Both the position numbers and the translations under genes were made by a program. A stretch of 64,000 bases of DNA from Neocallimastix sp. 'constans' (taxonomy: Eukaryota), in the NCBI GenBank assembly GCA_050613775.1, contig JBODTK010000126.1:62001-126000 (forward strand), read 5' to 3'. The notes under the pieces were generated by a model that ran no database searches, was not told the DNA's origin, and worked only from the letters and a program-made list of their open reading frames with translations. The stretch's first letter is position 1. Each line of letters starts with the position of its first letter. Shown piece by piece: positions 1 through 63,489 of the stretch.

Positions 1-780
1 TAATTTTAAAGCTTTCGAAAAGGCTGTCATAAACTTCGGAAATAAATCAAGTAAGTGTACTAATTTAGTATTAATTTCAGTAGAAGCTATTTCTTTAACT
101 AAATCTTCTATCAGATATTCGTCAAATTCTTCTACTAATTTTATGTGCCTTTCTTTATTTTCTTCTTTATTATTCATTTTATTATCACCTTGTGTGGGAC
201 TATCTAAAATTTCTTGTGCTCTTTTTAATTTATTAGATTTCTTCACGCTCCTGATATTCTTTTCGGTAATAAAGGAAGGATCTAGGTAGTTTAATTTTTC
301 TGTCTCATTAATAGGTAAGTCATCATTATTCTCAATTTGGTTATTACCTTCTTGAATTTCATTGTTATCATTCTCATTATATATTGAAGTATTATTACTC
401 TCATTAGTATTTTTATTAAAATCTTGATTGCTTTTTTCAGACATTAAGACATCTTCTTCGCCCTTGTCTGATATAGTATTACTTTTTAATTTATTTAATT
501 TATTATTATGTTTATTAGTATTAGTTAATTGTTTATTTTTATTATTTGAACTCACTAAATGATTATTATGATTCATTGCTGTTGTTTGTATAGGAATTGG
601 ATTGTTCTTTAATATTTCTCTTCTAGATGGTGCAAGATTCTTACTTTTTGTTTTGGTATTCTTGATGGCGGTAGCAATGACTTCAGGTGAGTTGTTAATT
701 ATTGGAAGTGTCTTTGGGTTATTTTCTACTTGGTTGGTTTGTTTACTGGGAGTCATCCTTCTCCCAATTATTGGTTTAAA
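1..780 (-). CDS. 5' part of a pol-side ORF in the -1 frame relative to gag, open to the window edge
   Basis: Hand translation from the TTTAAAC site (FKPIIGRRMTPSKQ...LFPKFMTAFSKALKL) shows no stop for about 260 codons. No protease or RT motif is reached inside the window, so identity as pol is inferred from position. Confidence 0.7.
745..780 (-). promoter_or_regulatory. -1 programmed ribosomal frameshift signal (U UUA AAC plus downstream stem-loop)
   Basis: Heptamer TTTAAAC (780-774) is in the correct gag phase (CAT TTA AAC CAA TAA). A 5-nt spacer follows, then the stem AUUGGGAG/CUCCCAGU (768-745). Confidence 0.85.
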
Positions 781-1913
781 TGGCTAGTACTACTTGATGC
801 TTTTTCTTCCATTTCTGCAAGTTGTTTAAAGGAATAGGGGCAATCCGTAAATTTGTGTCCCGGTTGTGAGCAACGGAAACAGATAAGTCGTTTATTTAAA
901 TTATTACCAAAATTGGAAGTATTAACCTCCTTAATTTGATTATTATTTTTGTTATCACCATTTAAGTTAGTGATCGACATGAGATTATTTCCAGGGGTAA
1001 AGGCCGCAATATTTCGTTTGTTATTACCGTAAGATTGATTATTATTTTCCATATAGTTTCTATAGTTATTAAAATTTTGACTATTATATTTTGAATTAGT
1101 ATTATTATTAATTCCATTTACATTATTATAAGTATTTCCATTGAGGTTTTTATTATTATAATAATTATTATAGTTATTATAATATTGACTATTATTATTA
1201 TTATCTTTATATCCATAAGTGTTATAATTATTATAATTAGGATTAAAATATCTCTGGATGCCACGACGACGGGATTGTCCTACTAAAAATCCTTGATAGA
1301 ATGGGTGATTCATAATCGATAAACCTCTGTTATTCTGAGCTATCATCAAATTATTACTATGATAATTATTTTCATTGAATGAAACTGTATTCATCTCTCT
1401 CTCTGTTTCTTCTGCAACCTCAGCTACCTTGTAAGCTTCGCTTAATGTTTCACATTCAGCCTCCAATACTCTTGAGCAAGGATACATTCGAGTTTTTATT
1501 GCATTTATGTAGTCTTTTACGGAGACAAATTGTTGACGGTCTCTGCTTAGCCTGTGATATAATCTTTTATGTCTATAATTAAATTTTTTTATTGTTTCAT
1601 TGTTACTAATTTTTAAATCCTTTAGAATAGAACATTTATCATTTTCAGTGATGTTTAAGTATTCTTCGATGCAAGATTGAATTTGCTTGAGGGAAGGATA
1701 TTTCACTTCATTTCCCTTTTTCACTTTAAGAGAATTCAAATCTCCATGTACATCTTCATCTGTGGCTTCTAATACCCAAATGAAGATCTTTCTTGGTTCG
1801 ACGATGTCATATAATTCTAGGGTTTTAGCTAAGTCGCTAATCCAAGTATCAACGTCTTTGTCATAATCGTTCAAGCGAGGTAGAACCCTTTGTAACTTTT
1901 CGGCATCAATCAT
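768..1913 (-). CDS. gag: Gag-like protein of an LTR retrotransposon (probably Ty3/gypsy)
   Basis: Intronless 381-aa ORF with a CX2CX4HX4C zinc knuckle (CFRCSQPGHKFTDC) near the C-terminus. It lies downstream of an LTR-like segment and is followed by an overlapping -1 frame ORF. Confidence 0.85.
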   Translation of the reverse strand: MIDAEKLQRVLPRLNDYDKDVDTWISDLAKTLELYDIVEPRKIFIWVLEATDEDVHGDLNSLKVKKGNEVKYPSLKQIQSCIEEYLNITENDKCSILKDLKISNNETIKKFNYRHKRLYHRLSRDRQQFVSVKDYINAIKTRMYPCSRVLEAECETLSEAYKVAEVAEETEREMNTVSFNENNYHSNNLMIAQNNRGLSIMNHPFYQGFLVGQSRRRGIQRYFNPNYNNYNTYGYKDNNNNSQYYNNYNNYYNNKNLNGNTYNNVNGINNNTNSKYNSQNFNNYRNYMENNNQSYGNNKRNIAAFTPGNNLMSITNLNGDNKNNNQIKEVNTSNFGNNLNKRLICFRCSQPGHKFTDCPYSFKQLAEMEEKASSSTSHLNQ

Positions 1914-3853
1914 TTTTTTTTTTTTTTTTTTTTTATAATTAATGTTAATGTAAATTGTTAAATGTAGAATTAAGAATAGGTAGAATATTTGTAATTAAAT
2001 TTTTATATTATTGATATATTATATAATATGATTAATAAAGTATTTTATTTGTAAAAAAAAAAATTTTAAAAAAAGAAAATAAAGAAAAATAAAATAAGAT
2101 AAAATAAAATAAAAAAAAAAAATCTAAATTTTTTTTTTTGGAAAGGATAAGAGTTGAATTTAATTTAAACTAAACTATAAGTTCTCTAAAACTATTATTT
2201 TACTCAATTAGAATTTTTAAAACAACAAGAAAAACTCTCTCTTTAACTTTTATTTCATTCTCTTCTTTTAAATTTATTAATTAATTTTATCTTGAATATT
2301 ATTGGCTGTCTAATTAATTTTTAATCTATTTATATAATGATTTAGTATATTATATATTGTAATTATTTTTCACTATATTATTATAGGATTTTCTCTTTTG
2401 TTAATTTTCTTGCATATTTCTAGCTGTATTGTATCACAGTTGGTTTGGTTCGGGGTTTTTATAAAAATTATTCAAAAATTATAAATAAAATTAAAACAAT
2501 AATAAAAATAAAAATAAAAGATTAATATAAACAAAAAAAAAATAAATAAACAATATAACTTTTTAAAATTTGATTTTTATAATTCTTTTATTAAATTTTT
2601 TTTTTATTTAAAAATTATAATGTTAGAATTACAATATAAAAAAAAATACAATTTTTTTTACTGTTATTTATATTTTTTTCTTAAAATAATAGAAATGGTA
2701 AAGCCATTTCTTTGTATAATAAAAATTAATTATTATTAATAATTTTTATATTATTTTTTTTTTTTTTTTATTGTTAATATAATTATTATTTACTTATAAT
2801 AAATAATGCTTATATATTAATCTATTACTAATTATTTATTACTAATCTACTTAATTATATATTTTAAAAGACAATTTTTTTTTATTTTACAGAAATTAAT
2901 TCTGTGGTTTAGTAATATTTATTTAATCCTAAAGTTTAATTTTACTAAGTTTAGAAAAATAATATTATTTAAATTGTTAATATAAAATTTATAATCATTT
3001 CATCAAATTTATAATATAATATTTATAATAAAACATATAATAATAATATAACTATTTTCTTTTATGTTTAATTTTTTTTTTTTTTTTTTTATTAGTAATC
3101 ATTAATACAATTTTTAATCTGGAATTTTCCAAGAAATAATTAATATTGATAAGTTTAATATTAATAAAAGAATTATTGATAAGATTTTGATAAACTATTA
3201 AGAAAATTGATAAAATAAACTATATAATATTGATAAGGATTTTAATAATAATAAAATATAGATAAGAATAATAAAAGTAGTATAGATAAGGAATTAATAT
3301 TAAATACACTTTTTTAAATAGTATAATTTAATTTGTACTAATTAGGAATATAGACGAATTTATTAGAATATAGAAAGTTCCAAAAGAATAAAGAATCAAA
3401 TAATTTATTTAAGGGTTAAATAAATCATTTAAGATGAATAACCAAAAGAACATTATTTGGGCATTCTTTATCACAGTGTAATAATTTAATTAAAAAATTA
3501 TAATTAAATTATTAATCATTAATATTAGCTCTAACTGCTAATATTAAAGGTTTAGAAAAGAATCATACTTACCTATGGTTCTTTCTAATTATCGAGTTTA
3601 TTATAACGAATTATAATAGACGAAACACTAAAATTGATAAGGAAAAGTTTTAATTATAAAATTTGTTTTATTAAAATAATTTGTTTTATTATTTATTAAA
3701 AATTTTAAATGTTAAAACTTATTGTTATTATTATTATATTATAATTGTTATAATAATAACTCTTGATTTCTCAAAGAGAACTCAAGAGCCTTATTTATAC
3801 TTTTTTGTCAAAATAAGGTTAAAATCAAAAGGGGTTCTAATCTTAACAAATCT

Positions 3854-3987
3854 CTTATCTAGGAAAAGACTAGAAGAAAAACCTAGATAAGTTTTTTGAT
3901 CGATATTCTATCCATATCGATCATCGTGTTAATTAAGTAAAACCGATTACTTTTAAGAAGTAATTGGAAAAACCTTAATTAACCGAT
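3854..3987 (-). other. Structured RNA module in LTR, copy 1 (ENE-like U-rich internal loop, hairpin, A-tract, pyrimidine-loop hairpin)
   Basis: Three adjacent inverted repeats. Minus strand reads GUUAAUUAAG-GUUUUU-CC...GG-UUUUA-CUUAAUUAAC. Covaries with the copy at 4859-4982. Confidence 0.7.
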
Positions 3988-4139
3988 TACTTAATCTAAT
4001 ATAATGATCGAAAATAAAAGAATAAAATAATGAAAATTATTTCGATCATAAAATTTAAAATTTAATCTATTTAGTTCTATTTTATAGAACTTTACATAAA
4101 AAATATAAAACAATACATTAATAATAAAATATATGATTA

Positions 4140-4193
4140 ATACAATACAGAATACATGATAGAATACAGAATACATGATAAAATACAGAATAG
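4140..4193. repeat. Short tandem repeat (~19-20 bp, AATACAGAATACATGATAR, about 2.5 copies) inside the LTR
   Basis: Directly visible repeated units. Confidence 0.7.
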
Positions 4194-4553
4194 TGTTATA
4201 GTTTATGATTTAATAAGTGAGAGAAAACTAAAACTAATAAATTTAATAATTAAGTGAATAATTAAATAAATTTAATATTATTTTAAATGTATAAAAATTA
4301 TTTGATTAAATAAATTTTTAATATTAAACTAAATAAAATTTTAATATATAATTAAATAAATTATTAATTATAATTAATTGTATAAATGAAATATGAGTTA
4401 AATAAAAGTTATATTAATTATAACCTAACTAAGAAAATATAATTATTTTGTTAAAAATAATTATAGATTCTTACAGAGTTTCGTTACAAATAATATTAAA
4501 CTATACTATTTAAATAAATAAAAATTTAACAATAACAGATTTGGCGAATTTTT

Positions 4554-5248
4554 TGTGACTAAATTATTTAACTTCATATTTAATAAATATAAATTTAAAT
4601 AATTTAAGTTCTAATTTATAATTTTAAATTTCAATTATTAATTTAAGGAGAAATAATTATTTAAAGTATTTAATTCATGCACGTAAATTTGATGTATGAT
4701 TTTTCGTTTACATAAATTTATTGAAATATGCTTTAATTCATAAATTAATGTAAATTACATAATTTTATTCAAGATATCGTGGAAAAAATTTCATACATAT
4801 ATTAATGTAATAATGAATTACATAAATTTATTAAAGATATAAAGATATCTTTACAGATTCTTTCCAGAAAAAGATTAGAAGAAAAAACTGGAAAGATTTT
4901 TGATCAATAATCTATACTTATTGATCATCGTGTTATTAAATAAAACCAATTATAATTAATCGGAAAAACTTTAATAACCGATTTTAATAACTAAAAGAAT
5001 TAAAAAGAAAAAAGGATAAAAAAGAGAAGGATAAAATAATGCAGAAATTTTATTAAATACATTTTTTCTTTGAAATAATACAGAAGTTATATTAAATACA
5101 TTTTTCATATAACAATTAATACATTAATTGGTATAATTGTTTTTAAATGAAATAAATTTTTAAAGAATGATAATTATGAAATAATTATTAATTAATAAAA
5201 AATAGAAATAAATTATAAAAATTTATATCAATTTCTTACATTCTTACA
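4554..5248 (-). mobile_element. 3' LTR of the decayed Ty3/gypsy element
   Basis: On the minus strand the integrase stop is followed by a purine tract (AAGGAGGTGCAA) and TGTAAG at 5248. The distal end (..TCACA at 4554) is a best guess. Confidence 0.6.
4859..4982 (-). other. Structured RNA module in LTR, copy 2
   Basis: Same three-hairpin layout and loop sequences as 3854-3987, with different but still paired stems. Confidence 0.7.
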
Positions 5249-5258
5249 TTGCACCTCC

Positions 5259-7030
5259 TTATGATGCATCCACTAGTTCCGGATTTCTTTTTGTATAAGG
5301 CTCCAACTGGGAAACATGAAATACCGGATGTAAATGTAGATTTTCTGGCAAGTCCAAACGGTAATTCATTCTCTCCCTCACTTCCAAAATTCTAAACGGC
5401 CCAAGATATTGTGAAGAAAGTTTTTTGGATGGCTCATTTGTAAAATTATATCTTTTTAGCCATAAAAAATCATTTATTTTGAATGAAGGTCCTGTAGCTT
5501 TCTTCGAATCTCCAAAATTATTAAAATTTTCTTTAGCTTATTGTAAGTGTCTCTTTAATGCTTCGAAATGTGAGGACCAATCCCTGGTTAAAGCGGAAGC
5601 ATTATCCTTTAGAAGAACAGGAGGCGACTCTATAGTGCAGGAAGGATTAAAGCCATAATTAGCAAAGAATGTGTAAAGATTTAATAAAATCTTTAATAAT
5701 TAAATAATTTTGGATAATAAATTTAATCTAAATAATTTATTTAAGTTAGTTAATTTAGTTTAGTTAGTTTAAAATACTTTAAAATTAATTTCAGAATAGT
5801 TTTAAATAGTTAAAATTAGTATAAATAGTTTACAAAAATAGTTTTGAATTGTAAATATATAAACATTAGTATTAATAATATTTATATAATAAATATCTAA
5901 TAAATGAGTTTTTATTGAATTTAATTATTATTGTAAATAAGTTGAAAGTTTATTGAATTAATTATTGTTTAGTTTTAGTTAATTATTATTTAATAAAATT
6001 ATTAATAAATATTTTGTTTATAAATAAATAGTAATATATGTAAATTAGATAGAAATAATATATTATAATATAATCATAAAAAATTATAAATACATGTAAA
6101 TTTCTATAATTAAATCGATGTATTAGTTATTGACTATCAAATAGTTAATAACGAGAAGAGATTTATTTTTAAATTTAATAAAAGATTATTTATTAAAAAG
6201 GAATTTTTTTTATTACGTGTTTTTATATATATTTTGTGTATTTTGTTATTTGTAATCTGTTTCATATAAACTCTTTACAGAATGATGATTTACCTATGGA
6301 CTTATGCAGGGAGTTGTTATAGGCCATTTCACATAAAGGAACATAATAACACCATTCAATCTGGGACATTGAACAATGACATCGGAGATACTGCTCAATT
6401 ACTGCATTTGCACGCTCAATTTGTCCATTGGATTGTTGATGGTGAGCTGTGGCAAGTCTTGGATTAGCGTTAATAGCAGAGCACAACGAGGTCCAAAATT
6501 CTGATGAAAATTGAGAACCATGGTCCGAAACAATTATTTTAGGGAATCCATGGTAGTGAAAAACATTGAATAGAAGCATTTTGGCTGTCAGATCAGCGGA
6601 GGGAACATCAGAACAAGGGACAAGGTGAATCATTTTGGTCAGATGGTCAGCAACAACCATTAAACATGTACAATCATGCGAGCTGGGAAGTGAAGTGATA
6701 AAGTCAACGCCAATTATTTCCTAAGGTCTACTGGGAACCGGTAAAGATTGTATTTTACCATATGGCTTGTGTCTTCAGAGCTTATTTCTTCCACAAACAT
6801 CGCATGAGGATATGCAATTCTTGATATCTTTTTTCATATTTGGCCACCAATAATTTCTTCTTAATTTTTCAAAAGTTTTATCTACTCCTTGGTGACCATT
6901 AGTTGGACCATAATGATACATTTTCAATACCTTGGCCTTGAGTGAAGAAAGGACAATTATTCGGTTCTGAAATGCAGAACCCCTTCGACGATGGTAAAAA
7001 GCGAACTTTTTACTTCATTTGACCTTGTTT
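5259..7030 (-). pseudogene. Ty3/gypsy integrase remnant, interrupted by a solo LTR and in-frame stops
   Basis: HHCC region (GHQGVDKT..YWWPNM..CDVC), core motifs VDFIT, IVSDHGSQF and QSNGQIERAN, and C-terminal YLGPF and HPVFHVSQLEPY motifs. At least three stops. Confidence 0.92.
5672..6279. mobile_element. Solo LTR (608 bp) with 5-bp TSD GAATG
   Basis: Perfect 8-bp inverted termini TGTAAAGA...TCTTTACA. GAATG at 5667-5671 and 6280-6284. Removing it restores the integrase frame (GKSSF|FANYGF). Confidence 0.93.
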
Positions 7031-7051
7031 TAATTTTATTGAGTGTATTCT

Positions 7052-8286
7052 TACACTTAAACAGGATACACTCGGAATAATTATAGCTATTCCAGTTCAC
7101 CATAAATTTAATATTCATCAAATGGATATTAAAGCCGCTTATTTAAATGCCAAACTAAAGGAAGATATATACATGGAGATCCCTGAAGGTCTAAAGAGAA
7201 AAGGTTTTTGTAAATTAAATAAAGCTTTATACGGCTTGAAACAATCAGGTAGGATGTGGAATGAAACATTTAATAAAGTATTAATAAGTTTAATCTTTAA
7301 AAGGTTCATTAGTGACCTATGTGTATATATTAAAAAGGATAATGATAGTAACATAAAATGTATTGTAGCCGTATATGTAGACGATATTATTATATCTGGA
7401 ACTGATGCCGAAATTAAGAAAACCAAAAAATTAATTAAAAATAATTTTGAAGTTACCGATGTAAGTGAGATTGATTTTATAATTGGTATAAAATTCGTTA
7501 AATGTAATGACAGTTATTTTATACATCAAATAAAATATTTAGAAGAAATTCTAAATAAATTTAACATAAACAAATATAGTTTAATATCGAACACCATACC
7601 TATTGAATATAAAGAATTAAGAAATAAATACTTTAATCCTACAAGATATAAACAAGCAATTGGAAGTTTGCTTTATCTGGCTTTAAGTACTAGACCTGAT
7701 ATTTTATATTCAGTCAGTAAGGCTTCAAGGAAATCTGAAAAACCCACATACGAGGATTGGTATAACTTACTAAAAGTATTTAGATACTTAAAAAAGAACC
7801 CAAATTATGGTATAAAGTTTTTATATAATGATAAAATTAACCTCGAAGTATATGTTGATGACGATTTAGGTGATGACAAAGAAACTAGAAGATCAACTAC
7901 TGGATTTCTAATGCTAATTAATTCAGCCCCAACAAGCTGGTTCTCTAAACTTCAACATTGTGTCTCTGTATGAATGCGCAAGACACTGCTTATGGTATAA
8001 AAATATATTTAAAGAATTTGGAATCAGACATGAATGTATAACAATCAATACTGATAATAAAGCAGCAATTTATAATTCCGAAAATGAAACAATTAACCCG
8101 AAATCAAAACATATAGATTTAAAATATCATAGTATTAGAGAATTGGTAAGAAATAATTATATAGATTTAAAATATATTAAATCTGAGTATAATTTATCAG
8201 ACAGTTTAACTAAATACTTAAATACTACTTTAATGAATAAATTTAGAAACAACATTCTTTCTAGCTTTAATGATCTTAAACTTTAG
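7052..8286 (+). pseudogene. Ty1/copia reverse transcriptase + RNase H remnant (5'-truncated, frameshifted)
   Basis: HQMDIKAAYLNA, LYGLKQSGRMWN, YVDD, TRPDI, DNKAAI, KSKHID. Frameshifting deletion near 7970 where the STAEAEY-type motif is expected. Confidence 0.93.
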
Positions 8287-8519
8287 GGGGAATGTTAGAA
8301 ATAAAGCTTAATATTATAATACTATATTATAGTTAGTTATATAATGACTTAGAATATAATATTATTAATATATTAAATAATTAAACATGTATTGTTATGT
8401 AAATATATTGTGGCGCATATATGACGTACATCATATACTTACATAAGCAACCAAATATAGTTATATTAAATGTAATAAATAATGTTTATATAATTGTATT
8501 ATACAATTAATTATAAACA
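8285..8519 (+). mobile_element. Copia polypurine tract and 3' LTR
   Basis: AGGGGGAA at the RNase H stop, then TGTTAG at 8293. The right end (..AACA 8519) is tentative. Confidence 0.6.
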
Positions 8520-29726: not shown

Positions 29727-30170
29727 AGAATATAAAACATTCATTATAAAAAAATATTATAATAAATATTTTAAACATTTGATTTTAACCTAATATAGGA
29801 ATAATTATATTTTGATATTTAGATTTATAAAAATAAACCAAAATATATTCTATAAATGATAAATTATCTAAATATAAAATGTTAGTTACATTATTAATTA
29901 CTAACACTTTATTTAGATTTTAAAAAATATTTTAATTTACAAAATAGATAATTCAAAAACATAAAACTAGTAAGATGATAAAGACTTTATTATAAATTTT
30001 ATTTTGATTCAAAAAAAAAAAAAAAAGGATTCTGTTTAATATAAAATTTATATTTAAAATATATATTATTATATATTTCTTTTTTAATTCTTTTAGTATT
30101 TTAAAAAGTAATTTTACTTAAAAAAATTGAAAATTAAATATTATAAAATATTTTTTTAAAATATTATAAC

Positions 30171-30421
30171 ATAAAGTTTATTATTTGATTTATAATATAT
30201 AACATGGTAAAACTCTATCATATTAAAATCAAAATTAAAATATTATGTATATTCTAGTATTAATAAAAATAAAATAAAATAAAATAAATAGTGAAAAAAT
30301 ATAAAGTTTATTATTTGATTTATAGCATATAACTCATGGTAAAAAACTATGTTATATTAATATCAAAATTAAAATATTATGTATATTCTAGTATTAATAA
30401 AAATAAAATAAAATAAATAGT
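30171..30421. repeat. Tandem duplication, period ~130 bp, two diverged copies
   Basis: ATAAAGTTTATTATTTGATTTATA...CATGGTAAAA...TATGTATATTCTAGTATTAATAAAAAT starts at both 30171 and 30301. Confidence 0.9.
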
Positions 30422-57569: not shown

Positions 57570-60500
57570 TTAACTCCTATAACACACACAAGTTTATCAT
57601 CTTTTTTCTTAATAGAAATACACGGTTCACTGACTAATTCATAGAATCACAAATGTTTTAAAGTAGTACTAATATTATTATTCCATTCTCTTGCAGCCTG
57701 TTTTAATCCATATAGAGCCTTTTGTAACTTAAAATATCCTTTTCCAAAATTTGGATCTCCTTCAGGTATCTTCATAAAAATATCTTCCTTCAAATCGGCA
57801 TATAGATAAGCTGCCTTTATATCCATTTGGTGAATGTTAAAACTATTTTCTGCAGCAAATGATTAATGAATCCTGTTTTAGTGTTGGCGAAAAAGTTTCT
57901 TTATAATCTTCTCCATATTCCTGGGTATAGCCTCTTGCTACTAAGCCTTGCTTTATATTTATCAATTTTTCCTTCACTATCTCTTTTAATTTTGAAAACC
58001 CACCTGGAATCGATTATATTAGCTCCTTCAGGAACCTTTTCAATCTTTTTGAATACTTTCCTTTCTTTCATATTATTTAATTCGTTTTCTATAGCACTTA
58101 TCCATTTATCTTTGTCTTTTCTTTTAAAAATTTCCATATATGAATTTGGTTCTCTGATTTGGTTAATTGTTGTTAAACATTCCCTTTTTCTTTTATTAAT
58201 GTTCTTTTGTATTTCTCCTCTATAGTCATTTACGTTAATTCCTTCCACATTTTCCTCTACATTTGTATTTACATTAGCATTTTTATTTAAACTTTTAACT
58301 TTTCTTTTCCCTTTATGCATTATTGTTCATATTCTCTACTTTTATTTTTGTTAAAATTTAGTGAATCATTAATTATTTTAAAATTTTTAAAATTTTTATT
58401 ATATTCCATTTTTGACTTATTAATTTTTTTTTTTTTTGAATTAAATTATTTTTTAATTTATATGATTTTAATAAATTTTTATCTTTTAAAAATTTTTTAT
58501 TGTCTTTATTTTTAATAGTTAAATGTAAATTAGATTTTTGATTATTTTCTGAATAATTATTTTTTATATTAATTATATATTTATTTATAACTTCTACATG
58601 ATTTTTTTTAGGATTTTTATCGAACTTTACAGGATTTTTGTCAGGATTTTTGTTTTAAATATTTTTGTTTTCCAGGATATATTTGATTTATTAAGTTTGT
58701 ATTATTTTTCGTATTATTTGTTTTTATTTTTATTTCCTTTGAATTCATATTTTTTAATTTTGAATTGCTTGAGTGATTTTCGACATTAATTTTATTTAAA
58801 TTAATTTCTAAATTAATTTTTTGACCAATTTCTTTATTATTATTATTGTTGTTGTTGTTGTTATTATTATTATTTGGAATAATATTTTTAGAATAATATT
58901 TTTAACATTTTGTTTTTTGTTATTTTCAAAATTTTCTTTGTTTAAATTTAAATAAGAACACTCGTCATTTAGATTTTTTTCACTAAAATTATTTTCACTT
59001 GAATTATTATTATTTGAAGTATTTTCAACAAAATTTTTATTTAAATTATTTTCAATTAAAATATTTTTATTTGAATTATCTTCAATTATAATATTTTCTT
59101 TAAAATTAAACGATTCATTTTCATTGTTTTTGTTTATAATGGTAATTTCTTCTTTATCATGGTCATCTAATTCTAATATCTCTTTACCTTTATTTTTGTT
59201 TTTATTTAAAATAAATATTTTTTCGTCCTTAATACCTTCTCTCTCACTTTTATTAAAATAAATATCTTCGTTAACATTTCTATTTAGAATAATTTTATTA
59301 TTATTATTGATTAATTTATTCCTTTCATTAATAATATTTATATTGTTTTTAATATTGTTTTCTTTGTTATAGTTCTGTTTACTTATTGAACTTTCTTCTA
59401 ATTTTTCTTTCTGTTTTGCTTCACCTAACAAAAGTGTGTTCGTTTTTGTATTACCGTGTTTTATCAACATGTTTATGTTCTCAAGTTTCTCTTCTATTAA
59501 TTTAAATTTATTCTTAAGATGTTCTTTTTCTTTTTGACTTAATGAAAGACTTTCTTCTTCTTTATCTTTATTTGGATCATTGTTTGAATTATTTGGAATA
59601 TCTTGCATGTCTAAATCGACAATATCTACTTCTACTGTTCGTTCACTGTTATTATCTCTTTGACTCCTGTTGTCTTCATTGTTCTCTTCTTTAGGATCTT
59701 CTTCTATTTCTTTATTTTCTTGGATAATATTAATTATGTCATTCCTGTTGTAATAATTTCTTTCTTCTAAGTTATTCATTAATGTGCTTTCATCTTGCGT
59801 TTCGGTTTCTTCATTTTCATATCTCCTTGCTTCAGATACATAATCAAAGTTAAAGTTACCTGGCTGATCTTCAAGAAATTCTACCACACTTTTCATATAT
59901 ATTTTCATTTTATCAATATCGAATATTCTGTACCCTGTTGAGTCTTCGTTATATCCCAGAAAGACTCCTTTTCTTGAATTACTCCTAAATTTTTCTGGAT
60001 TTACTTCATAACAGTAAACTATACAGCCAAAATACATGTTAAGTTACTATTGTCAACTTACTTTTCGTAGAATACTTCGAATGGGATTTTTTTATTATTT
60101 CCATGATGTGGCACCCTATTGTGCACATAATTAGCTGTCTTTATAGCATCTTCCCAAAATATTCTACATAATTGACTATCTATTAACATTACGGTAGCAA
60201 TTTGAATAAGTACTCCGTTTAGTCTTTCTGCTCTACCGTTTTGTTGAGGATTTCCTGGTACAGTGAATTGTTGCATGATTCCGTATTTGTTACATATTTC
60301 TTTAAAATTATTTTAAGTGAATTCTGTTCCATTATCACTTCTTAAATATATTATATTTGAATTTGTTTTATTTTTAATTTTGATATATCATGTTTCAAAT
60401 ACTTGGTATATTTCTGACTTCTTCTTTACTGTAAGGATCCAATCATATCTATTATAATCATCTAAAATAGTCACTAAATAGCAGTTGCCGTAAATTGATG

Positions 60501-61490: not shown

Positions 61491-62503
61491 TTTTTTTTTA
61501 GACAGGAAAGAGAATACATTTCATTTCCAAAACTTTATTAAATTTATTTTAGAAAATACATGTAGGTGAAAAGTACAATTAAAATTAAAAATAAAAAAAT
61601 TTAAAAAATAAAAAATAAAAAAAAAGCTCAGAAATGCTATGTATTTCGGCAAGTTGTACTATGCGTTTTTTCCCTTCTTAATAAATAAAAATGGAATAAA
61701 ACCTAGAAGTAACATCTTTATAATAGATAGTGTAGTGTCCACTAAACTCTCCCCGGATTCATCATTTATTGAACTAATAAGGCGAGATTCATCCTTCGTA
61801 GAAATAGATGATGATCCTGTATTATCATTATGTCTTATCAGTACGACGTCGACGTTCTTGGTTAAGTTTGGTATTTTGGATTACCTATCAAATAATAGCT
61901 CAAACGAACTTCTTATGATAGGTACTGCGATAGTTAAGAATTCCGCCAAGCTCACAATTTTTGGAACAGGTGACTCAGATGAACCTTTGAAAAGTAGTTC
62001 ATTTAATTGTCTCTGTTCCCCACTATCGAAATGTAGCTCATTTAAAGCTAGTTCCACCAAGAAAGAACAAGTATATATAATGATTGATATAATCATCAAA
62101 ATCAGAAATAAAGTCATAGGAAAAAAGATGATTTAACACTCTAATCTTCCTAGCGAACAAAACATAGAGATCATCGATGAAATTTAAAGAATTCCATCTA
62201 AAAGATGAAAGAGCATTGCATTTAAAAAACCAATGTTCAAAAGATTGATTACCTTCGTCACAACAGGGAGCAAGTCTTGAGATAATCTTCTGAAACTCTA
62301 CCCATTCTAATAGCAATAGTAGTATTGTATCTATAACCACAGCGTAAACGTATAATCCACGAAAACCCTAAGTTGAATTGGGGATATTTTAAGCTAAGCA
62401 TAATTATAGCTTTATTATTTGAGAACTTGATACTATCGTAGTTTTGACCTTTAATACCATGAAATTTGGAACCTGATTTCCAGTAACGTTCTAAAATATA
62501 GTC

Positions 62504-63178
62504 TTTTTTTTTTTTTAACGGCAGCAAAATTGTTTCATCTTTATTAATTAAATATATGATAAAATACATGTAATAAAAAGAAAAAAAAAAAAGAAAAAAA
62601 AAAAAAAAAAAAAATAAAAAAAAAACACAAAATAAAAATAAAATAAAATAAAATAATAGTACAATATATTCTAGTTTCATTTAATTAATATCTGTAAGAC
62701 TTCACAAGGGCATTATTATACCGTAGTATAATAATTAATTTTGACTTCACAATGTTAATCATAATTTTAAGATACAAAATTATGATCTTCATTGGTTGTG
62801 CTAGCCCTGCTGGCCTGTCTTACTGTTTCTTCAGCATTGACGCTCTTGGTAGTAGTAGTACGATTCGATATGAACCTATTGAACAAAGACCATTGCAGGC
62901 CAATAGCAATAGGTATAATCGATTGAAGAAGAGCCGCAGTAATCACCAAAAATGGAGTATCAGAATAAGCACCTGATTTCATCTGGCATTTAAATAGATC
63001 CTTCCATTCCCTTGTACTGTTATTAATACTTCTGCCTCCAAGAAGGAAATTAAACACTTTTTCACACACACTGGAATCAACATACACATTATTTTCAATA
63101 CTATTACAAACATTACTAGCAATACTATTACTAATATTACTATAACTATTACTATTATTACTATTACTATTATTACTA
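62504..63178 (-). mobile_element. LINE 3' fragment B nested in LINE A
   Basis: Poly(A) at 62504-62516. Imperfect 12-bp TSD TAAAATATAGTC/TAAAATATCATC. Excision restores KCVKYD(D/Y)ILERYWK in LINE A. Confidence 0.75.
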
Positions 63179-63205
63179 TAAAATATCATCATATTTTACA
63201 CATTT

Positions 63206-63236
<31 letters not shown>

Positions 63237-63399
63237 CTTTTTTTGTTCAAAGTTCTAGATTCTTTAGTCCAAGAATAATAAGGCATTTTGGGAATAGATT
63301 TTTAATAAGATCCTTTATAGTACAGTTAGATTTGCTCCATTTTGCAAATGATTTAATTTGTAAGGCTGCGCAGATATCAGCAATAGGAAGGATACTTAG

Positions 63400-63489
63400 T
63401 TTTTTTTTTTTTTTTTTTTTTAGACAGGGAAGAGAATACACTTCCAAAACTTTATTAATTTTATTTTAAAAAATACATGTAGGTGAAAA
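63400..63489 (-). mobile_element. 90-bp LINE 3'-end insertion (same family as A) with 15-bp TSD
   Basis: T22 plus AGACAGG.AAGAGAATACA...ATACATGTAGGTGAAAA, near-identical to 61500-61572. TSD AGGA(A/G)GGATACTTAG at 63385-63399 and 63490-63504. Excision restores YALSRD|LSILPIA. Confidence 0.9.

What the first reader, a model, noticed from the sequence alone, without database searches (positions are those of the whole stretch)
3854..4982. Covarying ENE-like triple-helix module shared by two different LTRs
Seen: 3854-3987 and 4859-4982 share a ~135-nt layout although the surrounding LTR sequences look dissimilar. In element sense: (i) stem-GUUUUU-CC-stem-loop-GG-UUUUA-stem; (ii) a GAUC-closed hairpin; (iii) a conserved A5-A6 tract; (iv) a stem closing the loop UUUUUCUUCUARUCUUUU. 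Loops are nearly invariant while stems change on both arms (GUUAAUUAAG/CUUAAUUAAC vs GUUAUUAAA/UUUAAUAAC; GAUCGAUA vs GAUCAAUA; CUUAUCUAGG vs CUUUCCAG). Established: part (i) closely resembles the KSHV PAN ENE (GGUUUUUCC...GGUUUUUA), which clamps poly(A) in U-A-U triples, and ENEs are known from plant and fungal transposon RNAs. Inference: a two-pocket variant in which one U-rich pocket could bind the encoded A-tract (MALAT1-like) and the other the poly(A) tail. I do not recognise this composite architecture as described.
Basis: partly seen in the sequence, partly recalled or inferred. Interest (0 to 1): 0.88.

Follow-up and report, generated by a model that had tools for sequence, protein, structure and literature searches.

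The report
Two-pocket poly(A) clamp in fungal LTRs
Two otherwise unalignable retrotransposon end-repeats in what is likely an anaerobic gut fungus share a 130-base stretch whose paired bases change together, and it is predicted (untested) to grip the RNA's poly(A) tail like known ENE stability elements, with an extra U-rich loop that I did not find described.

Summary
Both copies (3854-3987, 4859-4982, minus strand) fold alike (z about -6.5). They align at z=16 while their flanks align at chance level. Of 38 homologous pairs, 6 changed on both sides and none on one side. Copy A lies in the 3' LTR of a Ty3/Gypsy remnant. Copy B lies in a second, highly repeated LTR. The host is likely a Neocallimastigomycete.

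Domain i has the shape of a single-domain ENE, a kind already known from fungal LTRs; this scan noted ENE-like hairpins in other fungal LTRs before. Domain iv, a stem capped by a mirror-symmetric U-rich loop, is the unusual part, and a further hairpin (v) follows it.

The MALAT1-like role for the internal A-tract is not supported: it has no linker to reach either pocket, and its length varies from 5 to 7.

Not shown: transcription (0 reads on the module in 23 million RNA records), the poly(A) site, or any triplex. No homologue was found in three contig collections. Verdict: new variant of a known kind.

The parts
3923..3987 (-). Copy B domain i: ENE-like hairpin; 14-bp lower stem with one bulge, GUUUUU/UUUUA internal loop, CC/GG clamp, upper stem-loop
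3898..3922 (-). Copy B hairpin ii: 9 bp, 7-nt loop, directly abutting domain i
   Evidence: no variant at 3% or more in run X1
3892..3897 (-). Copy B A6 tract, most likely a single-stranded linker
   Evidence: A5-A7 length variants, first A to G in 19%; reach estimate
3854..3891 (-). Copy B domain iv: 10-bp stem closing U5-CUUCUAGUC-U4, a mirror-symmetric pyrimidine loop
   Evidence: scores 16.2 bits (E 0.77, not significant) with the model built from domain i
3818..3847 (-). Copy B hairpin v (13 bp, 3 G.U, CCCC loop); its 5' arm can instead pair 10 bp with loop iv
4927..4982 (-). Copy A domain i (ENE-like hairpin)
4902..4926 (-). Copy A hairpin ii (9 bp, 7-nt loop)
4897..4901 (-). Copy A A5 tract
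4859..4896 (-). Copy A domain iv: 9-bp stem closing U6-CUUCUAAUC-U5
4832..4853 (-). Copy A hairpin v (9 bp, CUUU loop); 5' arm can pair 6 bp with loop iv
4476..5248 (-). LTR A, the 3' LTR of the Ty3/Gypsy remnant. It starts TG at 5248 after a PPT-like purine stretch that follows the integrase stop; its 3' end was not determined (lower bound is the start of LTR B)
   Evidence: sequence
3477..4475 (-). LTR B (inferred ends: the same 9-nt start as LTR A, and a TTACA end); highly repeated family
   Evidence: 11,020 contigs of run X1 lie on 3761-4240
5259..7014 (-). Broken Ty3/Gypsy integrase (H2C2 zinc finger, rve core, Tf2-type SH3), which fixes the sense of copy A
   Evidence: 29 relatives at 75-95% identity
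768..1994 (-). Gag-like ORF with a CCHC knuckle downstream of LTR B; link to LTR B is inferred from position and strand
   Evidence: relatives include two Anaeromyces robustus proteins; one unnamed relative 99% identical; no detectable similarity to family A polyprotein

Best explanation
The module is a conserved fold in two LTR families that likely acts as an ENE-type poly(A) clamp, predicted to slow deadenylation of the retrotransposon RNA. Shown: the fold is predicted on the element's sense strand, it is kept by double-sided changes, and its U-tracts are unchanged between the families apart from length in domain iv. Inferred, step 1: the module is transcribed upstream of the poly(A) site. 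Step 2: the tail threads into the U5/U4 internal loop of domain i and forms 4-5 U.A-U triples under the CC/GG clamp. Step 3: a further stretch of the tail, possibly its 3' end, enters the facing U-tracts of domain iv, where the CUUCUARUC cap takes the place of an upper stem. Hairpin ii stacks on domain i, and the A-tract serves as a spacer. Step 2 is the best-founded inference; step 3 is about an even bet given step 2.
For: Covariation and confinement of similarity to the module. Copy A lies in the sense strand of a 3' LTR, 266 nt past its start. Of 12 substitutions at 3% or more within the module in run X1, 4 are at unpaired sites, 6 keep or restore a pair (including C-G 44% or U-A 38% where the window copy has C.A) and 2 break one; none is in the 18 U-tract positions or the CC/GG clamp. 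Depth at variant sites in the module core is about twice that in the flanks (82-130k vs 40-52k), and several contigs match only the module, which suggests further families carry it (depth is not a copy number). ENEs are defined by such U-rich internal loops, occur in LTRs of plants and fungi, and the Evade ENE raises RNA stability and transposition (PMC7583470 section 13, PMC13541005 section 9 and Fig. 3 legend, PMC12501189).
Against: No read lay on the module in two raw RNA runs (10.4 and 12.7 million records read). Those runs share only a species label with a DNA holder, and no control gene was laid. The single RNA-library contig (X15, 151 nt, depth 2.5) shows neither strand nor transcription. 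The poly(A) site is unknown. If the weak self-priming match is real, transcription starts near 4150 and the module lies in R or U5; in U5 it would not be at the 3' end. The lower stem of domain i is A-U-rich next to the loop (G-C in B, A-U in A), whereas flanking G-C pairs were essential in Evade (PMC12501189). Absence of U-tract variants has p=0.18 by itself. The X1 variants are unphased, and X1 may be the window's own source. No homologue was recovered from three contig collections.
Confidence: 0.55

Rival explanations
1. Domain i clamps poly(A), but domain iv is not a tail pocket. It forms an H-type pseudoknot with the (A)AAGAU strand 6-9 nt downstream, with the loop's 5' pyrimidines as third strand (U.A-U and C+.G-C triples, telomerase-like), and hairpin v competes for that strand as a switch.
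For: Loop iv is a mirror repeat (6 nt in B, 7 nt in A), the pattern that clamps AAAAGA. In B the downstream strand pairs 10 bp with the loop (-10.2 kcal/mol; 24 of 2866 control windows as strong). AAGAU sits at the matching place in both copies (74 of 2866 control windows hold it). The only variable loop base (G/A; 33% in X1) faces a U. In X1 the 5' arm of hairpin v has no variant at 3% or more, while its loop and 3' arm vary, and a loose-end group of 21 contigs reads as a 10-nt deletion in the 3' arm.
Against: In A the pairing is only 6 bp (-3.8 kcal/mol; 556 of 2866 controls as strong) against a perfect 9-bp hairpin v. No compensatory change links the loop and the strand. The idea was formed after seeing the sequence.
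Confidence: 0.2
2. The module is a structured signal for another step of the retrotransposon cycle (Gag binding and packaging, dimerisation, export, strand transfer or poly(A)-site control in R/U5), and the U-tracts are protein-binding loops.
For: A run of five or six hairpins in an LTR resembles retroviral R/U5 leaders (own knowledge). An 11-nt complement between LTR B 4150-4140 and 2434-2424 would put the module just after the start site (24 of 2000 shuffles). The A-minor stem of domain i is A-U-rich.
Against: No invariant palindromic loop for dimerisation (loop iv is palindromic only in the G allele). The two neighbouring gag types are not detectably similar, yet the loops are the same, which fits a shared host ligand such as poly(A). 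Facing U-tracts under CC/GG are the ENE signature.
Confidence: 0.17
3. One reading: the encoded A5-6 tract fills one pocket (MALAT1-like) and the poly(A) tail fills the other.
For: The tract is present in both families and shows no internal substitution at 3% or more in X1.
Against: Zero-length linkers against a reach of about 4-6 nt before any triple can form (rough estimate); length varies 5-7 and the first A is G in 19%; MALAT1-type tracts are at processed 3' ends and match G/C-interrupted loops (PMC7583470 section 13).
Confidence: 0.05
4. No RNA function: a segment moved between LTR families by recombination, and inverted-repeat correction copied changes from arm to arm.
For: All stem changes are double-sided, which arm-to-arm copying would also give; the similarity has fairly sharp edges.
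Against: Such copying would not keep the loops: 2 of 42 unpaired sites changed, p=0.03 if the neutral rate equalled the stem rate. Helix lengths and junctions are kept.
Confidence: 0.03

Closest known systems
Single-domain ENE (KSHV PAN RNA; single-domain ENEs of plant and fungal transposons, Tycowski, Shu and Steitz 2016, known to me only through reviews)
   Same: Hairpin with facing U-tracts in an internal loop, G-C clamp above it, located in an LTR; ENEs embedded in 5' and 3' LTRs are already reported (PMC13541005 Fig. 3 legend).
   Different: Lower stem is long and A-U-rich next to the loop; the ENE-like hairpin is one part of a conserved five-part module; function untested here.
Double-domain ENE (rice hAT TWIFB1; Arabidopsis Evade with four U-tracts)
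   Same: Four U-tracts in two potential poly(A) pockets in a transposon RNA.
   Different: In dENEs two internal loops are stacked in one hairpin, separated by a short duplex (PMC13541005, PMC7583470). Here the second pocket is a terminal loop on a separate stem, set apart by a hairpin and an A-linker.
MALAT1/MEN-beta blunt-ended triple helix
   Same: Pyrimidine loop with U-tracts interrupted by C (domain iv); an encoded A-run nearby.
   Different: The A-run is internal, lies 5' of domain iv, has 5-6 nt with no G/C to match the loop, and cannot reach the pockets.
Telomerase RNA H-type pseudoknot triple helix
   Same: Stem closing a U-rich loop whose 3' half could pair with a downstream purine strand and whose 5' half could form U.A-U and C+.G-C triples (as in K. 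lactis, PMC7583470 section 10).
   Different: Strong pairing only in copy B; a local hairpin competes; no covariation support.

Membership tests
Single-domain ENE | Stem-loop with a U-rich internal loop on both strands | tested here: met
   GUUUUU/UUUUA loop between two helices in both copies
Single-domain ENE | G-C pairs flanking the U-tracts on both sides, with a lower stem that takes A-minor contacts | tested here: inconclusive
   Upper CC/GG invariant; lower side is a G.A opposition then G-C (B) or A-U (A), followed by A-U pairs
Single-domain ENE | U-rich strand is the transcribed strand | tested here: inconclusive
   Sense of the adjacent integrase agrees; no RNA read on the module in X22 or X23
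Single-domain ENE | Lies upstream of, and near, the poly(A) site | tested here: inconclusive
   Inside a 3' LTR, but no RNA ends were seen; U3, R or U5 not fixed
Single-domain ENE | Forms U.A-U triples with poly(A) and stabilises a reporter RNA | not testable with these tools
   needs probing and reporter assays
Double-domain ENE | Two U-rich internal loops in one hairpin, separated by a short duplex | tested here: not met
   Second U-rich loop is terminal and on a separate stem
MALAT1-type ENE+A | Encoded A-rich tract at the RNA's 3' end, complementary to the G/C-interrupted loop and able to reach it | tested here: not met
   Internal A5-6 with zero linker, variable length
Telomerase-type pseudoknot triplex | Loop pairs with a downstream purine strand in all members, with covariation | tested here: inconclusive
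   10 bp in B (24 of 2866 controls), 6 bp in A (556 of 2866), no compensatory change
Any Rfam 15 family | Match at or near the family's gathering score | tested here: not met
   3 weak unrelated matches (E 0.46-9.5) in 3300-5400
Ty3/Gypsy LTR retrotransposon (element A) | Integrase at the end of pol, after protease, RT and RNase H, followed by PPT and LTR | tested here: met
   H2C2, rve and SH3_Tf2-1 in the window; relatives are about 1350-aa polyproteins bearing protease, RT, RNase H and integrase families and ending in the same C-terminus

The most novel reading that the evidence does not exclude
A two-triplex 3'-end lock with a built-in switch, shared by distant Ty3/Gypsy lineages. Cleavage in or just after the loop of hairpin v removes its 3' arm. 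The freed AAGAU strand is then clamped by the mirror-repeat loop iv in a telomerase-like pseudoknot triplex, and the poly(A) tail that follows is gripped by the ENE of domain i. In the 5' LTR copy, intact hairpin v hides the same strand and keeps the lock off. This would join an ENE, a pseudoknot triplex and poly(A)-site choice in one 170-nt element.
Probability: 0.12. Interest if true: 0.82.

Novelty: new variant of a known kind. Interest (0 to 1): 0.52.

Why it matters
ENEs in fungal LTRs are a known kind, so domain i alone is an ordinary new member. The added value is threefold. First, a second U-rich pocket built as a capped terminal loop would be a third way of arranging two poly(A) pockets, beside single and stacked double ENEs. 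Second, the module is kept, or was swapped, between LTR families whose other LTR sequence and neighbouring gag genes are unalignable. Third, it may extend ENE-like elements to an early-diverging, very AT-rich fungal phylum whose LTR elements a 2026 review lists as largely uncharacterised (PMC13728883, one passage). A compact RNA stabiliser native to anaerobic gut fungi could be of use for expression constructs. All of this depends on a function that is not yet shown.

Tried and rejected
No whole genome was held. Rfam: nothing relevant. Pattern scans: viral contigs 0, 107 and 2 stretches with three patterns; loci L001-L109 were in the nhmmer search and gave no hit at E 1. Metagenome contigs gave 118 loci from 31 of 64 parts scanned. 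None is a homologue: best nhmmer E 0.21 among all 227 loci, longest closing stem 8 bp, no tblastn match to the polyprotein, and the domain-i model gave 1 hit at E 0.91 in 120 loci. Prokaryote genomes gave 2 chance matches. The metagenome pattern fixed loop iv and the scan was cut short, so this is weak evidence of absence. Protein-based locus searches in viral contigs found nothing. The domain-i model found no third copy in the window (next unrelated hit E 0.15). A kissing contact between loop ii and loop iv (4 bp, invariant) arises in 4870 of 20000 shuffles and is not counted as evidence. G.U versus A.C counts (4 vs 1) are too few, and biased, to fix the strand. Reads of X22 and X23 that lay on 4049-4144 are almost all under 90% alike on AT-rich sequence and were discounted. 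LTR A was not examined with reads. Twenty of the 21 runs without raw reads held part of 3400-5300; only X1 and X15 of these were laid, so no habitat claim rests on the rest. The primary papers (Tycowski 2016, Torabi 2021 PNAS) were not held.

Full report
Observation. The two stretches are as described, on the minus strand. Each folds into the same three helices with z about -6.5 and 0 of 200 shuffles as stable; the plus strands fold as well (z -8.0, -5.4), so strand must come from context. The copies find each other at E 6e-10 and 1e-13 and nothing else in the window. BLAST similarity spans only 3840-4027 vs 4847-5021 at 77%. The module aligns at z=16.1 and seven flanking 100-nt blocks at z -0.7 to 0.9.

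Covariation. Pairing the helices by coordinate gives 38 homologous pairs. Six changed on both sides (G-C to A-U twice, U-A to A-U, U-A to C-G, A.C to G.U, and the top G-C of stem iv to U.U, which lengthens both U-tracts), and none on one side. One base pair is lost from both arms in P1 and, on my alignment, in stem iv. Random placement of 12 changes in 6 pairs has p=9e-8. This uses two sequences and a structure-guided alignment, and cannot by itself separate selection from arm-to-arm correction. Unpaired sites changed at 2 of 42 against 12 of 76 paired sites (Fisher p=0.13; p=0.03 if the neutral rate equals the stem rate).

Setting. Copy A lies 266 nt inside an LTR that begins TG at 5248, right after a PPT-like stretch and the stop of a broken integrase with H2C2, rve and Tf2-type SH3 domains on the minus strand. 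All 29 relatives found (of 92 candidates) are 75-95% identical over the matched part, many as polyproteins of about 1350 aa. The U-rich strand is thus the element's sense strand. Copy B lies in a second LTR, inferred to run 4475-3477 from a shared 9-nt start and a TTACA end. A gag-like ORF lies 1.5 kb further on. Of its 21 relatives two are named Anaeromyces robustus and one unnamed protein is 99% identical, which points to a Neocallimastigomycete host and a young family. This gag shows no similarity to family A's polyprotein (best E 0.28). That LTR B belongs to this gag is inferred, not shown.

Variation among copies. On 3761-4240, 11,020 contigs of DNA run X1 were laid (X1 may be the window's source). 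Nineteen substitutions reach 3%, 12 of them in the module. Four are at unpaired sites (loop iv R 33%, first A of the tract 19%, bulge 81%, internal-loop G 14%). Six keep or restore a pair (three give G.U; A.C to A-U 7%; and a C.A opposition becomes C-G in 44% or U-A in 38%). Two break a pair (A-U to A.C 10%; top pair of stem iv 14%, as in family A). None falls in the 18 U-tract positions (p=0.18 alone), the CC/GG clamp or hairpin ii. The A-tract is one shorter in 12% and one longer in 3%. The variants are unphased, and a transition gives G.U on one strand half of the time, so this agrees with the fold without proving it. Depth at variant sites is about twice as high in the core as in the flanks, and some contigs match only the module, suggesting more carrier families; the tool warns that depth is not copy number.

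RNA. Two raw RNA runs that share a species label with a DNA holder gave 0 reads on the module from 10.4 and 12.7 million records (19% and 26% of the runs). One 151-nt contig of metatranscriptome X15 covers 3918-3976 with 6 differences (3 contigs laid of 1,084,200). Transcription, strand and poly(A) site are therefore not shown.

Homologues elsewhere. None was found in viral contigs, in the 118 loci from a half-finished metagenome scan, or in prokaryote genomes. Rfam has no match. A family-wide covariation test could not be run.

Mechanism. Domain i matches the ENE description in the reviews: a U-rich internal loop between helices that binds poly(A) in U.A-U triples with adjacent A-minor contacts (PMC7583470 section 13; PMC8704770 passages; PMC13541005 section 9). 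Its upper CC/GG clamp is invariant; its lower stem is A-U-rich, unlike the G-C flanks found essential in Evade (PMC12501189). Domain iv has G-C pairs under facing U-tracts but a 9-nt cap in place of an upper stem; the domain-i model scores it weakly (16.2 bits, E 0.77). The loop is a mirror repeat. The simplest reading is a second pocket for the tail. The A-tract cannot serve as third strand without unfolding a helix: it has no linker, and about 39 or 28 A must be crossed (rough). A hairpin v follows in both copies, alike in place but not in sequence. Its 5' arm can pair with loop iv by 10 bp in B (24 of 2866 control windows as strong) but only 6 bp in A (556 of 2866), which leaves a telomerase-like pseudoknot triplex (PMC7583470 section 10) as an open rival. 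An 11-nt complement between 4150-4140 and 2434-2424 recalls self-priming of Tf1-like elements (PMC4600332 passages; the 11-nt length in Tf1 is recalled). It reaches 24 of 2000 shuffles, but 76 of 292 control windows have a match of 11 or more, nearly all without G/C, and it needs a 1-kb insertion after the LTR. If true, the module lies in R or U5.

Comparison and novelty. About 200 ENEs are known, mostly from plant and fungal transposons, some inside LTRs (PMC12501189, PMC13541005). This scan noted ENE-like hairpins in LTRs of other fungal genomes (unchecked notes) and no look-alike of this sequence. The module fails the layout tests for dENE and MALAT1-type elements. I found no description of a capped second pocket or of ENEs in anaerobic fungi in searches (0 papers with ENE, triple helix and Neocallimastix). 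The primary survey (Tycowski 2016) and its supplement were not available, so novelty is provisional.

What I read: PMC12501189, first fifth of the text and passages; PMC13541005, passages and section 9; PMC7583470, passages and sections 10 and 13; PMC8704770, PMC4600332 and PMC13728883, passages only. Tycowski 2016 and Torabi 2021: not seen, cited through these.

Verdict. A real, selected RNA module. It likely works as an ENE; membership is unproven; the composite layout appears new. New variant of a known kind, interest 0.52.

Noticed in passing
window 768-783 (-): The gag-like ORF overlaps the next ORF in the -1 frame at a U UUA AAC heptamer, with an 8-bp hairpin shortly after (fold z only -1.2): a candidate ribosomal frameshift site.
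   Followed up: partly
window 3476-3469 and 2439-2432 (-): The same 8-mer follows the end of LTR B and recurs 1037 nt further on; it could be a target-site duplication around an AT-rich insertion between the LTR and its primer site.
   Followed up: partly
window 4150-4140 and 2434-2424 (-): 11-nt perfect complement, a possible self-priming pair; the LTR side lies in a 19-nt tandem repeat (4140-4192, 2.8 copies), and a similar 9-nt word occurs twice upstream of the module in LTR A (5085, 5046).
   Followed up: partly
window 2440-2457 (+): A TGG-led G/T-rich stretch after a CA end that looks like a tRNA-type primer site on the plus strand, opposite to the gag sense; unexplained.
   Followed up: no
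window 3745-3800 (-) and 3995-4060 (-): Two more hairpins in LTR B only: a strong one downstream of the module next to a TATA-like word (z -5.1) and a GAUC-containing stem with a large U-rich loop upstream (z -2.4); both coincide with depth peaks in X1.
   Followed up: partly
window 7023-8300 (+): Copia-type RT remnant (RVT_2) inserted against the Gypsy remnant, followed by a PPT-like stretch and a TG start near 8293; a second copia-like region lies near 57699-60043. Neither holds the module.
   Followed up: partly
window 5660-6260: About 600 nt of AT-rich sequence splits the integrase between its core and SH3 parts.
   Followed up: no
window 30130-30417 and 61491-63489: A tandem 150-nt duplication (84%) and an 82-nt direct repeat 1.9 kb apart (89%).
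   Followed up: no
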